Below are positions 1-3,000 of a DNA stretch of 64,000 nt, in pieces. The stretch spans positions 169,632,001 to 169,696,000 of the forward strand of contig CM075978.1 in the NCBI GenBank assembly GCA_038087875.1, written 5' to 3'. This DNA is from Malacoraja senta (taxonomy: Eukaryota). The number at the start of each line of letters is the position of its first letter. The stretch's first letter is position 1. Made by a program: the position numbers.

Positions 1-3000
1 TACCATTCGGCGCCGCCGTTTCAGCGCCAACGTTTAGGCACCGCCGATTTGGGGTGTTAGAGTTAGGGTTAGGGTTAGGGTCAGGGTCAGGGTTAGGGTT
101 AAGGTTCTGATGAGTACAGATATTATAAACGGAGGCGCCAAACCAGCGGCGCCAAAAAGTACCCGACCCGGCTTTTGGGCATGCGTTTTAGTAGCAACTC
201 ACTGTCCAAGGTCTTGCAGATACTGTCTAGCTTTCACTGGTACCTGCAGTTTTCTGTTACAATTTTCAGATTTCCAGCACCAATATTTTGCCTTTAACGA
301 CCAGAGCACAGCTGGCTCACAGTGCCAGAGACCTGGGTTCGATCCAGACCTTAGGTACTATATGGGTGGAGTTTCTCCCCATAATCTCGTGGGTTTCCAC
401 CGCATGCGCCAGTTCCCTCCAACATCCCAAAGACATGTGGGTTTGTAGATTAATGTAAGTTGTAAATTGCCCTCTAGTGTGTAGGCAGTGGATGAAAAAG
501 TAGGATGACATAGAGCTAGTGTGAATGGGTAATCGATGGTCAGTGTGGACTAAGTAGGCCAAAGGGCCTGTTTCCAAGGTATCTTTCAATTTCGATCTTA
601 TACTTTGTTTCTTTTTTTTTTGTTTACGTGGACTAGTAGCATCTGAAAGAGCAGATTGTGCTAATGGATTTGTGTTGCATATCTGTGACCTGTTAGTTTC
701 CCAATGCCATTATCTCACACCTCACAACCTCAGGACTTACTCCACCGTCAAATTAAATACTTCGGGAGTGTGTTTACAGTTGTGGGAGACTGGACAATCT
801 GTCCATGCATAGCAAGCACCCACATGCAGCAAAACATCAAATTATATGACTTGGTTTCGGTCAGAGAATAAATATTGGCCAAGACACTGGGAGGATTTCA
901 CTCACTCCAAAGAATGACTATGCATCTTTATTTCAGCTAGATATGCAGTAAAGGCCCCAGTTGAATCATACATTCAATAGCAGAAACACCATTGGAAGAT
1001 AAATACTGATCAGGATACAGGAGATTTTACAGAATCCTCATTTGCAAAATAATGCTGTGGAATTTTTTGTATCCCATTAAAAGAGCAGGCTGAGTTGCTG
1101 CGTTACAGTGGCAGAGATCACGGTTCAAGGTTGACAATGGGTACCGTCTGTACGGAGTTTGTACCTCCCCCCTGTGACCGTGTGGGTTTTCTCCAAGTGC
1201 TCTGATTTCGTACCACACTCCAAAGATATAAAGGTTTGTAGGCTAATTGGCTTTGGTAAAAAAAATGTTCCTTGTGTGTGGTAGTATACTAGTGTACAGT
1301 GTAATCGCTGGTCGACGCTTACTGTATCTCTAAAGTCTAAAGGTCTGAATTTAATGTATTGTTTCATTGAAGGCCCCTCGGACAGTGTAGCTCTCCCTCA
1401 GTAAGGCACCACACTCTCACCTTGATTGTTAGTTTAGTTTAGTTTAGAGATACAGTGCAGAAATAGACCCTTCAGCCCACCAAGACCGTGCTGACCAGTG
1501 TTCCCCATATCAAGCATGAGCCTACACACTAGGAACAATTTACACCAAAGTTAAATTAACCTACACATCTGTACTTCTTTGGAGTGTGGGAGGAAACTGG
1601 AGCACCCGGGGGAAACCTGGAGCACCCGGGGGAAACCCAAGTGGTCACAGGAAACCTGAAATCTGAAGAAGGGTTTTGACCCTAAACGTCACGCATTCCT
1701 TCTCTCCCGAGATGCTGCCTATCCAGCTTTGTGTCTATCTTTGGTCACAGGAAAAACATACAAACAGCACCCATAGTGAGGATCGAACCCGGGTCTCTGG
1801 AGCTGTAAGGCAGCAACTCTACCGCCGTGCCAATCCCTGTCTGGAGAATAAAGGGAACACATTTACACATACATACATCAAATAACTAGACCCATACAGA
1901 CACAGATACACACGTGCTCATGCAGCAGACACACTCTGCAAGCCGCACACATTTTTTCCTTTAATCCCCCCCAGACCATAGCCTGCTTTCACACTGGGAG
2001 CAATATAACACAGGCACCTGTCACTTCAACTTGTGTTTCTCTTAACATGCAAACCCATGCACTGTTCTCTCCTCTGAGCTATAGGGAGAGGTCGAGCAGG
2101 CTAGGACTATATTCCTTGGAGGGCAGGAGGATGAGGGGTGATCTTATAGATGTGTACAAAATCATGAGAGGAATAGATCGCATAGATGCACAGTCTTTTC
2201 CCCAGACGAGGAGAAATTGAGAACCAGAGGACATAGGTTTAAGTTGCAGTGGGAAAGATTTAATAGGAATCTGAGAGTAACTTTTTCACACAATGGGTGG
2301 TGGGTGTATGGAATGAGCCGCCAGAGGAGGTAGTTGAGGCAGAGACTATTGCACTATTTAAGAAACAATTAGACAGGTACATGGATAGGACAGGTTTAGA
2401 TGGATATGGGCCAAACATGTAGGACTAGTGTAGATGGGGCATGTTGGTCGGTGTGGGCAAGTTAGGCCAAAGGGCCTGTTTGTACGCTGTATGATACCAT
2501 TACTCTCCTCCCCCTTTATTCCATTATTGGTTCTGAAACAATTTCAGCAGCTTAAAGCTTAAAAAAGCCTAAGCTTAAAAAAAAACAACTGCGGGCAGAT
2601 TTCAATTAAATTAACTGGCAACGTTTAAAATAAAAGCTCAAATCTTGCCCGTCGGAAACATTTCTTAACACAATTTAACCCTTTAACGCCACCAAGTGCA
2701 TCAACACAAACAATTTCCTGTCTAATTTCCTTCCTCCTAACCCTGATAAGGAAACAAGGTTCCCTCAGGGCCAACAATAATTCCTTGGTAGCTTATCCGG
2801 ACCAGAGGGGTTGCAAATGAATCTTCGGCATGGTTTAATACAGGACAGTGCATTGATTTGGGATCTGAAATGATCACTCCATTAGTTAACAAGGGCGCAG
2901 TTTAAAGAAAATAAACACGGGGGGGGGGGGGGGGGGGGGAGAGAAAGAAATGCTGCAGGAGAATTGATAAAGCATAGTGACTGATATACAATTAAAGCAA

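What the first reader, a model, noticed from the sequence alone, without database searches (positions are those of the whole stretch)
1642..1754. Hammerhead mini-units insert independently with long TSDs
An 87-bp unit sits inside an HE1 SINE between perfect 13-bp TSDs. Units at 7124-7216 (16-bp TSD, 2 mismatches) and 53946-54074 (13-bp TSD, 1 mismatch) look the same. All begin within about 8 nt of the CTGAAGA box, lack a poly(A) or simple-repeat tail, and show no Pol III boxes. Inference: these are either a very short non-autonomous element mobilised by Penelope RT, or Penelope insertions whose truncation points cluster at the ribozyme fold.
Basis: partly seen in the sequence, partly recalled or inferred. 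Interest (0 to 1): 0.65.

Follow-up and report, generated by a model that had tools for sequence, protein, structure and literature searches.

The report
Short Penelope-type hammerhead retrocopies
These are short, old, inactive copies of the hammerhead-bearing end of a Penelope-like retrotransposon scattered through a fish-like genome; they are an ordinary product of how that element family inserts, though they have an unusually sharp starting point right next to the ribozyme motif.

Summary
All three named units are flanked by the stated target-site duplications (TSDs), and seven other copies of the host SINE show the site 1 target undivided. The unit belongs to a family of 47 copies (6.7% of the window) with a 128-nt profile consensus. 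I found three more TSD-bounded insertions (16/16, 14/14 and 11/11 bp).

The anatomy matches published Penelope-like element (PLE) insertions:
- a minimal type-I hammerhead motif
- no poly(A) tail
- 11-16-bp TSDs
- two classes of 3' end about 32 nt apart (the optional PLE "tail")
- seven head-to-head inverted pairs and some partial tandems
- 5' truncation

About half the copies (22 of 47, 12 independently proven) start within a few nt of the box, with a sharp edge 2 nt upstream. That is a real peak, not a smooth continuum. However, 8 copies extend further upstream and 16 are truncated further in.

End types combine freely and do not track sequence variants. This favours ends chosen at each insertion over a separate 87-nt lineage.

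No RT or endonuclease gene lies in the window, and no Rfam hammerhead model matches. The family is a new member of a known kind, of modest interest.

The parts
1655..1741 (+). 87-bp unit (short 3' form, starts 7 nt before the box) inserted in a SINE; TSDs at 1642-1654 and 1742-1754
   Evidence: 13/13 repeat; 7 intact SINE copies carry the target once; score 13, null 99th percentile 9.
7124..7216 (-). 93-bp unit (short 3' form, box start); TSDs at 7108-7123 and 7217-7232 (16 bp, 2 mismatches)
53946..54074 (-). 129-bp unit (long 3' form with tail, box start); TSDs at 53933-53945 and 54075-54087 (13 bp, 1 mismatch)
   Evidence: keeps the CTGANGA..GAAA..TH pattern.
24142..24230 (+).
   Evidence: keeps the hammerhead pattern.
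24294..24452 (+). 159-bp copy (long 3' form) whose 5' end lies 32 nt upstream of the box in a pyrimidine-rich stretch ending TCAG; perfect 11-bp TSD ACTCCAAAGTT at 24283-24293 and 24453-24463
   Evidence: (score 11; null 99th percentile 10.9, n=210).
25693..25814 (-). Partial tandem. A 23-nt copy of the unit's own 3' end (25791-25813, identical to 25692-25714) is joined to a body that begins within 1 nt of the predicted hammerhead cleavage site. Perfect 14-bp TSD at 25679-25692 and 25815-25828.
   Evidence: The position relative to the cleavage site was read by eye against the profile consensus.
13706..13932 (.). Head-to-head inverted pair (13707-13824 minus strand, 13837-13936 plus strand) joined at the box ends; 14-bp flank repeat with 1 mismatch at 13692-13705 and 13933-13946, in TTTAG-type simple sequence
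10603..10868 (.). Head-to-head inverted pair (10603-10698 minus, 10743-10868 plus), 44-nt spacer
11111..11308 (.). Head-to-head inverted pair (11111-11204 minus, 11214-11308 plus)
27747..27957 (.). Head-to-head inverted pair (27747-27873 minus, 27892-27957 plus)
35542..35882 (.). Head-to-head inverted pair (35542-35677 minus, 35689-35779 plus), followed in tandem by a box-start copy at 35797-35882 (plus)
42593..42769 (.). Head-to-head inverted pair (42593-42716 minus, 42719-42769 plus)
62444..62617 (.). Head-to-head inverted pair, both copies 5'-truncated (62444-62537 minus, 62536-62617 plus)
33541..33809 (-). Partial tandem: a full long-form copy with upstream extension (33683-33809), followed by 5'-truncated copies at 33612-33678 and 33541-33570
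   Evidence: best-preserved hammerhead pattern.

Best explanation
The units are short retrocopies made by the reverse transcriptase and endonuclease of a Penelope-like element (PLE). The template is the hammerhead-bearing end module of the element's RNA. The ribozyme strand is the RNA sense strand.

Proposed steps:
1. Staggered nicks in the target give 11-16-bp TSDs.
2. DNA synthesis starts inside the RNA at one of two sites, about 92-102 nt or about 128-132 nt past the start of the box. This gives a short form and a long form that differ by a ~32-nt 'tail'. No poly(A) is involved.
3. Synthesis runs towards the RNA 5' end.
4. In about half of the events the copy ends 2 nt upstream of CTGAAGA (AG|TCTGAAGA). 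I infer this is the 5' end of a common template RNA, possibly a transcription start at the initiator-like TCAGTCT.
5. Other events stop earlier (5' truncation) or come from longer RNAs that reach at least 25-32 nt further upstream.
6. Priming on both DNA strands gives the head-to-head pairs.

The ends are chosen at each event. The copies carry no known promoter, are old (mean 83% identity to the profile consensus), and most have lost the ribozyme core through CpG decay.

Shown here: TSDs, the end classes, the inverted and tandem arrangements, the motif, and the decay. Inferred: the identity of the enzyme, internal initiation, and the nature of the 5' end.
For: **Family size.** A profile search finds 47 copies totalling 4264 nt, 6.7% of the window.

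**TSDs.** Six single insertions have significant TSDs of 11-16 bp.

**3' ends are bimodal.**
- 16 of 47 end at consensus 92-102.
- 3 more end at 106-111.
- 19 of 47 end at the model's end, 126-127.
- TSDs place the true ends at about 88-100 (3 copies) and 128-132 (3 copies).

**These ends match published PLE behaviour.**
- In the Anolis PLE, reverse transcription starts at two internal sites 111-118 nt into an ORF that begins at hammerhead stem II. The 30-40-bp 'tail' is the stretch between the two sites. Both DNA strands are cleaved and extended. RNA from +20 to +172 suffices (PMC11167929, main text read).
- Rotifer PLEs have a 31-bp optional tail, head-to-head inverted pLTRs and short TSDs. 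Their pLTRs suffice in cis for integration in trans (PMC3846280, passages).

**Arrangements.** There are seven head-to-head pairs against one tail-to-tail pair, plus partial tandems.

**Orientation.**
- 16 copies are truncated at the box side but keep a canonical far end.
- Extra nucleotides sit at the box-side junction, and microhomology at the far junction.

**Motif.**
- The consensus shows CTGAAGA, one extra A, a 4-5-bp helix II closed by G-C, GAAA, and the palindromic ACGT before the cleavage C. These are the four features listed for PLE minimal hammerheads (PMC4209133, parts 1-2 read).
- Helix II forms in both the MFE and the centroid fold.
- 11 of the 12 window-wide matches to the pattern lie inside units.

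**Sharp 5' edge.** Among 18 non-extended copies, G is found at -1 in 13 and A at -2 in 13, with no conservation at -3.

**End forms.** They combine freely and are unlinked to sequence variants.

**Context.** Penelope-like elements are reported as expanded in whale shark introns (10.1101/443036, passages).
Against: - **No autonomous element is in the window.** None of the 186 open frames scanned has an RT or GIY-YIG domain. I scanned 186 of the 201 frames of 70 aa or more, leaving out 15 overlapping frames of 100 aa or more. So the enzyme and the place of this module in a full element are unverified.
- **No Rfam hammerhead model matches**, at gathering score or at E up to 10, even on a 201-nt stretch. 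Only 11 of the 31 copies covering the region keep the pattern, and there is no compensatory covariation.
- **Coding differs from the Anolis and rotifer elements.** Read by eye on the consensus, the only ATG-led frame is closed by a TAA inside the tail. The module therefore does not look like the start of an ORF.
- **The 5' edge as an RNA end or transcription start is inference only.** The initiator-like word is short, and 11 of the box-start copies have no independent proof of where they end.
- **Only 6-7 of 47 copies show a TSD.**
- **The test for separate lineages has low power** (about 100 nt, 47 old copies).
Confidence: 0.6

Rival explanations
1. A dedicated, self-propagating non-autonomous mini-element (SINE-like or retrozyme-like). 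It would have its own source genes, be transcribed as a discrete 90-135-nt RNA, and be mobilised in trans by a PLE.
For: - All 47 copies are short, and none continues into coding sequence.
- The 5' edge is sharp.
- The family fills 6.7% of the window.
- The unit spans roughly the RNA stretch that sufficed for insertion in the Anolis system (PMC11167929).
- pLTRs alone can be integrated in trans (PMC3846280, passages).
- Vertebrate non-LTR retrozymes are proposed to be pLTR-derived non-autonomous elements with monomer derivatives (10.64898/2026.07.22.740005, Results part 1 and Discussion read).
Against: - End forms are not linked to sequence variants and combine freely.
- Box-start copies would lack any upstream promoter.
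- There is no convincing internal Pol III promoter on the sense strand.
- There are no head-to-tail arrays of full monomers; only partial tandems occur.
Confidence: 0.25
2. Ordinary 5' truncation of long PLE copies, with the reverse transcriptase stalling at the hammerhead fold or at protein bound there.
For: The peak of 5' ends lies next to the motif, and 16 copies are truncated at scattered internal positions.
Against: - The edge lies 2 nt upstream of the whole motif, after the enzyme has already copied helix II and the box. A structural block would be expected on the 3' side, around consensus 20-30, where there is no excess (inference).
- Only 8 of 47 copies pass the box, and the one with a TSD-defined 5' end stops after 32 nt. 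That is not what truncation of a kilobase-long template predicts.
Confidence: 0.1
3. The transcribed strand is the other one. On this view the unit is a tRNA-related Pol III SINE, and the hammerhead resemblance is coincidental.
For: On the antisense strand there are an A-box-like word (TAACTCAGYGG type; 4 copies with 1 mismatch or fewer) and a B-box-like word (GGGTCGAGACC; 3 copies) about 50 nt apart.
Against: - ARAGORN finds no tRNA-like fold.
- The B-box-like word would sit 8 nt from the 3' end, with no LINE-type or simple-repeat tail.
- 16 copies would then be 3'-truncated, which target-primed reverse transcription does not readily give.
- The inverted pairs would be tail-to-tail.
- The motif carries all four extra features of PLE minimal hammerheads (PMC4209133).
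Confidence: 0.04
4. The flanking repeats are chance matches or segmental DNA duplications, not insertion footprints.
For: Only 6-7 of 47 copies have a detectable flank repeat. One of these lies in TTTAG-type simple sequence.
Against: - Scores of 10-16 compare with a null 99th percentile of 9.
- The site 1 target is present once in 7 intact SINE copies.
- The repeats abut the unit ends in every case.
Confidence: 0.01

Closest known systems
5'-truncated or solo-pLTR insertions of endonuclease-containing Penelope-like elements (Penelope/Poseidon and Neptune clades)
   Same: - hammerhead motif in the terminal repeat
- no poly(A)
- short TSDs of variable length
- optional ~30-40-bp tail at the 3' end
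- head-to-head inverted copies and partial tandems
- frequent 5' truncation

Sources: PMC8557442 passages, PMC3846280 passages, PMC11167929 main text, PMC8969392 passages. Cervera and De la Pena already noted that most minimal hammerheads occur as dispersed single motifs 'probably related to truncated PLEs' (PMC4209133).
   Different: - No RT/EN gene lies nearby, so membership rests on anatomy alone.
- The copies are extremely short (87-159 bp when bounded by TSDs).
- About half share one sharp 5' edge 2 nt before the catalytic box.
- The module does not read as the start of an ORF.
- TSDs here are 11-16 bp, against 8-10 bp in the rotifer examples.
Anolis carolinensis Poseidon element PAc, in vitro system (Frangieh et al. 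2024)
   Same: - two adjacent internal start sites for reverse transcription roughly 100-130 nt past the hammerhead, with the tail as the stretch between them
- extension from both DNA strands
- a short RNA just downstream of the ribozyme is enough
- the ribozyme is not needed for insertion
   Different: - In PAc the start sites lie in an AC-rich stem-loop inside the ORF.
- Here the region is non-coding by eye. Each end class follows a CCAGCAT word that can pair with one upstream AGATGCTG (92% and 94% of cells paired, no covariation).
- There is no sequence comparison with PAc, because I had no PAc sequence from a tool.
Metazoan non-LTR retrozymes (tandem repeats with type-I hammerheads expressed as circRNAs)
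   Same: They are hammerhead-bearing, non-coding and PLE-related. Monomer derivatives are dispersed in vertebrate genomes, one cartilaginous fish included (10.64898/2026.07.22.740005; PMC7229834 passages).
   Different: - Retrozymes carry canonical hammerheads with loop-loop contacts and form head-to-tail arrays of full monomers of about 170-400 bp.
- Here the motif is the minimal form and arrays are absent.
- Unit ends are not at the cleavage site, apart from one copy (25693-25814).
LINE-mobilised SINEs
   Same: Short, very abundant, non-coding, flanked by TSDs, and dependent on an enzyme supplied in trans.
   Different: - no Pol III promoter on the transcribed strand
- no tRNA, 7SL or 5S head
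- no LINE-derived or A-rich tail
- two alternative 3' ends and head-to-head pairs

Membership tests
Minimal type-I hammerhead of PLEs (Cervera and De la Pena 2014) | Catalytic boxes CUGANGA and GAAA in that order, with helix II between them and a UH cleavage site after a very short helix III | tested here: met
   Present in the profile consensus and in 11 of the 31 copies that cover the region. 11 of the 12 window-wide matches lie in units.
Minimal type-I hammerhead of PLEs (Cervera and De la Pena 2014) | [quoted passage not shown] | tested here: met
   The consensus reads CTGAAGA, then A, then GGGT..ACCC, then GAAA, then CG, then TC. Helix II forms in the MFE and centroid folds. Many copies have lost the CpGs.
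Minimal type-I hammerhead of PLEs (Cervera and De la Pena 2014) | [quoted passage not shown] | tested here: not met
   RNAalifold on 12 of the 19 long copies predicts no helix II pair and finds no compensatory change. The window's copies look like decay of one ancestral sequence.
Minimal type-I hammerhead of PLEs (Cervera and De la Pena 2014) | Self-cleavage, as a dimer or with protein help | not testable with these tools
   Needs transcription and cleavage assays.
Rfam hammerhead families | Score at or above the curated threshold of a hammerhead covariance model | tested here: not met
   No hammerhead hit at gathering score or at E up to 10 on the whole window or on 33660-33860. From my own knowledge, not from a call: this is expected if the models require a helix III.
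Endonuclease-containing Penelope-like element | An ORF with a telomerase-like RT and a GIY-YIG endonuclease | tested here: not met
   0 of 186 frames scanned carry either domain. The window holds only non-coding end fragments.
Endonuclease-containing Penelope-like element | An optional 30-40-bp tail giving two alternative 3' ends | tested here: met
   3' ends fall at about 92-102 (16 copies) and at 126-127, the model's end (19 copies). TSD-defined ends are 88-100 and 128-132.
Endonuclease-containing Penelope-like element | Head-to-head inverted copies and partial tandems | tested here: met
   Seven head-to-head pairs, one tail-to-tail pair, and three partial tandems.
Endonuclease-containing Penelope-like element | TSDs of variable length, no poly(A), and 5' truncation | tested here: met
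   TSDs of 11, 13, 13, 14, 16 and 16 bp. 1 of 47 units is followed by A6 or longer. 16 of 47 copies are truncated inside the unit.
Non-LTR retrozyme | Head-to-tail arrays of full monomers, each with a canonical type-I hammerhead | tested here: not met
   There are no arrays of full units; the tandems are partial. The motif is the minimal form.
Non-LTR retrozyme | Expressed as small circular RNAs | not testable with these tools
   No RNA data were available.
tRNA-derived SINE | A and B boxes within a tRNA-like head, and a LINE-type or A-rich tail | tested here: not met
   Only near-matches on the antisense strand, in 4 and 3 of 47 copies. ARAGORN finds 0 tRNAs. No tail.

The most novel reading that the evidence does not exclude
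The unit is a discrete RNA of about 100-135 nt. Its 5' end is fixed 2 nt before the hammerhead box, and its 3' end lies at either of two reverse-transcription start sites. On this reading it is the bare cis-acting module that a Penelope-like enzyme needs, and it has multiplied as one of the shortest and most abundant retrotransposed units in a vertebrate genome (nearly 7% of this window). The sharp 5' edge would mark the element's transcription start or a processing site. The one copy that begins at the predicted cleavage site, with a piece of the 3' end attached, would be a footprint of ribozyme cleavage followed by template switching in vivo.
Probability: 0.25. Interest if true: 0.55.

Novelty: new member of a known kind. 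Interest (0 to 1): 0.3.

Why it matters
If the reading is right, genomic fossils in a cartilaginous-fish-like genome independently show the two internal start sites and the 'tail' that were worked out in vitro for a lizard Penelope element. This would suggest that the unusual internal initiation is old and general. [quoted passage not shown] Practically, it shows that a large share of intronic repeat sequence in such genomes may be 90-160-bp Penelope end fragments, which annotation pipelines could easily mislabel as SINEs or as unknown repeats.

Tried and rejected
1. **The upstream extension of 8 copies as a diverged copy of the unit's own 3' tail** (a tandem or circular parent). Rejected: alignment scores against 19 tails are no better than shuffles (z from -1.3 to 1.8), and nhmmer gives no hit at E up to 50.

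2. **Pyrimidine tract plus CAG before the box as a 3' splice site that sets the unit's start.** Set aside: box-start units keep the AG, and a spliced exon would not.

3. **Units abutting another repeat's end as template-switch chimeras.** Rejected: that repeat ends in an A/T-rich (TAAAC)n tail, and units sit beside such tails in both orientations. This looks like a target preference.

4. **Finding the parent element in the window.** 54 of the 69 frames of 100 aa or more (15 overlapping ones left out) and all 132 frames of 70-99 aa were scanned against Pfam. Only a NUDIX exon was found.

5. **Rfam** at three settings gave no hammerhead.

6. **Single-strand folding** of the best copy is no more stable than shuffles (z = -1.1). 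The consensus fold shows no covariation.

7. **TSDs for the composite structures.** Only the 13706-13932 pair gave one, and it lies in simple sequence. The other 15 outer-flank tests scored 4-8.

8. **The apparent flank repeat at 10440-10518** (score 10) is unit sequence from a neighbouring inverted copy, not a TSD.

9. **The nhmmer match 27142-27196** is partly the reverse complement of its neighbour's tail. By eye, the copy at 27052 looks nested in an older minus-strand copy. I did not count that pair as head-to-head.

10. **Public collections.** The prokaryotic genome collection, the phage, plasmid and E. coli collections, and the protein searches were not used, because they cannot hold the parent element. 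A genome-wide census and the search for an autonomous element therefore stayed undone.

11. **Paper supplements were closed.** The supplementary figures of PMC11167929 (genomic ends against start sites) and of PMC4209133 (fish PLE hammerheads) could bear on the comparison and were not seen.

12. **Literature searches for prior description.**
   - 'penelope' + 'shark' + 'hammerhead ribozyme' gave 1 paper, irrelevant.
   - 'penelope' + 'elasmobranch' + 'transposable elements' + 'line' gave 4 papers. I opened only the whale shark preprint; it reports PLE expansion in introns.
   - Nothing I saw in these listings or passages describes unit boundaries.
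Full report
**What is there**

The window is vertebrate-like: 43% G+C, one N run at 59786-59985 (left alone), and many SINE-like repeats. Nothing suggested human sequence.

At the finding's coordinates, the word TGGTCACAGGAAA occurs at 1642-1654 and again at 1742-1754, enclosing 87 bp. Seven other copies of the host SINE were aligned, out of at least 20 that one search detects. All seven carry the segment GGTCACAGG... once and uninterrupted, while both flanks of site 1 carry it. This is a true target-site duplication (TSD).

The other two sites are as described:
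- 7108-7123 and 7217-7232 (16 bp, 2 mismatches) around 7124-7216
- 53933-53945 and 54075-54087 (13 bp, 1 mismatch) around 53946-54074

**The family**

A profile built iteratively with nhmmer has a 128-nt consensus and finds 47 copies. Together they cover 4264 nt (6.7% of the window) at a mean 83% identity to the consensus.

I tested every copy for a flanking direct repeat. The null was 2162 mismatched left and right flank pairs, whose 99th percentile was score 9.
- **24142-24230**, with a perfect 16-bp TSD (24126-24141 and 24231-24246).
- **25693-25814**, with a perfect 14-bp TSD (25679-25692 and 25815-25828).
- **24294-24452**, with a perfect 11-bp TSD (24283-24293 and 24453-24463). This one was found with an open 5' boundary (null 99th percentile 10.9, n=210).

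One inverted pair (13706-13932) has a 14-bp flank repeat with one mismatch, but it lies in TTTAG-type simple sequence. The other composite structures gave nothing (15 further outer-flank tests scored 4-8). So 6-7 of 47 copies have a visible TSD, which is plausible for copies this old.

**Ends of the unit**

I number from the T of TCTGAAGA on the ribozyme strand.

*The far end falls into two classes.*
- 16 copies end at 92-102, and 3 more at 106-111.
- 19 copies end at 126-127, which is the end of the model.
- The remaining 9 end elsewhere: 7 at 55-89 and 2 at 118-122.
- TSDs put the true ends at about 88-100 (1655-1741, 7124-7216, 24142-24230) and at 128-132 (53946-54074, 24294-24452, 25693-25814).
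- The difference is about 32 nt.

*The near end falls into three classes.*
- 22 copies (23 if 62536 is counted) start within a few nt of the box.
- 8 copies continue upstream into a pyrimidine-rich stretch ending in TCAG.
- 16 copies are truncated further in. One of these (61857) is an internal duplication.
- Of the box-start copies, 12 are independently proven: 4 by a TSD and 8 by abutting another copy.

*The near edge is sharp.* Among the 18 non-extended copies whose match starts at model position 1-3, G is found at -1 in 13 and A at -2 in 13. Position -3 shows no preference.

*The peak is not chance.* Against uniform truncation over 140 positions, 22 of 47 copies in a 12-nt span has P about 6e-12. 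For the 12 proven copies alone, P is about 5e-4.

But the box is a preferred start, not the only one.

**Arrangements**

Seven pairs of copies lie head-to-head with their box ends facing:
- 10603-10868
- 11111-11308
- 13706-13932
- 27747-27957
- 35542-35779
- 42593-42769
- 62444-62617

One pair is tail-to-tail (10440-10603). There are partial tandems at 33541-33809, 35689-35882 and 25693-25814.

The tandem at 25693-25814 is notable. Inside its TSD, a 23-nt exact copy of the unit's own 3' end (25791-25813) is joined to a body that begins within 1 nt of the predicted cleavage site. This is a single case. With 16 internally truncated copies, the chance that at least one lands within 1 nt of a named site is roughly 40% (my arithmetic, no call). 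It is suggestive only.

**The ribozyme motif**

The consensus reads, in order:
- CTGAAGA
- one extra A
- a 4-5-bp helix II closed by G-C
- GAAA
- the palindromic CG
- TC

These are the four extra features that Cervera and De la Pena list for the minimal hammerheads of Penelope-like elements (PMC4209133; parts 1-2 of 4 read).

Further points:
- Helix II forms in the MFE and centroid folds of the best copy.
- Helix I would be only 2 bp (read by eye). The same paper reports this for Drosophila virilis.
- The pattern CTGANGA..GAAA..TH is found 12 times in the window, 11 of them inside units. Only 11 of the 31 copies covering the region keep it. The losses are mostly at the two CpGs.
- No Rfam hammerhead model matches at any setting.
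- There is no compensatory covariation (on 12 of the 19 long copies).
- The copies at site 1 and site 2 have damaged cores.

**Which strand is the RNA?**

Four observations point to the ribozyme strand:
1. The far end is canonical in 35 of 47 copies, while the box end is the one that is truncated (16 copies).
2. The inverted pairs are head-to-head on this reading, which the literature describes as the usual form for these elements (PMC3846280 and PMC8557442, passages).
3. The partial tandems have the more truncated copy arrangement described for these elements (PMC8969392, passages).
4. Extra nucleotides lie at the box-side junction (7, 4 and 2 nt at 1655, 7216 and 25814), and microhomology lies at the far junction.

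On the other strand there are near-matches to Pol III A and B boxes about 50 nt apart, in 4 and 3 of 47 copies. But ARAGORN finds no tRNA-like fold and there is no SINE-type tail. I give that reading about 4%.

**How it most likely works**

In the Anolis Poseidon element (PMC11167929, main text read):
- Reverse transcription starts inside the RNA at two adjacent sites, 111-118 nt into an ORF that begins at hammerhead stem II.
- The 30-40-bp 'tail' of genomic copies is the stretch between the two sites.
- Both DNA strands are cut and extended.
- RNA from +20 to +172 is enough.
- Ribozyme mutants insert normally.

Rotifer elements show a 31-bp optional tail, head-to-head inverted terminal repeats and short TSDs. 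Their terminal repeats suffice in cis for integration in trans (PMC3846280, passages).

The units here fit this scheme point by point. I therefore read the two far-end classes as two internal start sites, and the head-to-head pairs as priming from both strands.

The sharp near edge lies 2 nt upstream of the complete motif, after the enzyme would already have copied helix II and the box. That position argues against a structural stall. It argues for run-off at a real RNA 5' end (inference). In 6 of the 8 extended copies the sequence there reads TCAGTCT, which fits the initiator pattern YYANWYY (recalled, not from a call). This is weak support for a transcription start.

5' and 3' end types combine freely:

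| 5' class | long 3' end | short 3' end |
|---|---|---|
| box | 9 | 8 |
| extended | 5 | 3 |
| truncated | 7 | 8 |

No polymorphic column tracks either end type. The best P values are 0.076 over 23 columns and 0.079 over 16, both uncorrected. Within the low power of 47 old copies, this favours ends chosen at each insertion over separate inherited lineages.

One further observation concerns CCAGCAT. The word occurs twice, 30 nt apart, and each copy lies about 20 nt before one of the two end classes. An upstream AGATGCTG can pair with either copy:
- 94% of cells are paired with the first copy and 92% with the second.
- Slid controls give 26-51%.
- There are no compensatory changes, and shuffles do as well as the observed pairing.

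This may define two alternative stem-loops like the one at the Anolis start sites, but it is unproven.

**What does not fit, or is unknown**

- No RT or GIY-YIG domain is present in 186 of the 201 frames of 70 aa or more. The only domain found is a NUDIX exon at 39184-39435 (minus strand).
- The enzyme, the parent element and the place of this module within it are therefore unverified.
- Read by eye, the only ATG-led frame in the consensus is closed by a TAA inside the tail. Unlike in the Anolis and rotifer elements, the module does not look like the start of the ORF.
- The upstream extension is not a copy of the tail.

**Comparison and novelty**

Already in print:
- Dispersed single minimal hammerheads 'probably related to truncated PLEs' (PMC4209133).
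- The tail and the inverted and tandem forms (PMC8557442, PMC3846280).
- Internal initiation (PMC11167929).
- pLTR-derived non-autonomous elements with monomers in vertebrates, one cartilaginous fish included (10.64898/2026.07.22.740005; Results part 1 and Discussion read).
- Expansion of Penelope-like elements in whale shark introns (10.1101/443036, passages).

In the searches I ran, nothing I saw in the listings and the passages I opened describes the unit boundaries reported here. Those are the sharp edge 2 nt before the box and its free combination with two far ends.

This is a new member of a known kind. The finding is real and neatly explained, and of modest interest.

Noticed in passing
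window 39184-39435 (-): An open frame of 84 aa matches the Pfam NUDIX domain (E = 5.4e-07, 30.1 bits, cut-off 21.1). It is probably an exon of a host gene, which would make much of the window intronic.
   Followed up: no
window 1599-1638 (+): Inside the host SINE at site 1, a stretch of about 20 bp (CTGGAGCACCCGGGGGAAAC-type) is present twice in tandem. The other SINE copies aligned carry it once.
   Followed up: partly
window 21184-21230, 30272-30313, 13943-13989, 37063-37103, 56480-56530: A second repeat family ends in ...CACGTGACAATAAA followed by a (TAAAC)n simple-repeat tail. Hammerhead units lie directly beside such tails in both orientations (56409-56474, 13837-13936). This fits an A/T-rich target preference.
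   Followed up: partly
antisense strand of the units, consensus positions about 72-62 and 22-12: Near-matches to Pol III A-box and B-box consensus words about 50 nt apart (4 and 3 of 47 copies with 1 mismatch or fewer). The B-box-like word is the reverse complement of hammerhead helix II. No tRNA-like fold was found.
   Followed up: partly
window 49400-49820: A long TG/CA-rich, GTGTAT-type simple repeat. It gives weak sub-threshold matches to microRNA models (mir-297, mir-3149) that are surely composition artefacts.
   Followed up: no
window 26905-27196: The extended copy at about 27012-27168 (plus strand) appears to be nested inside an older minus-strand copy (26905-27011, plus about 27169-27196). 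This would bound its upstream extension to about 36 nt, close to the 32 nt of the TSD-bounded copy at 24294-24452. Read by eye.
   Followed up: partly
window 61788-61899 (+): One unit carries an internal duplication of about 20 nt (consensus positions 55-76 repeated), so nhmmer reports it as two overlapping matches.
   Followed up: no
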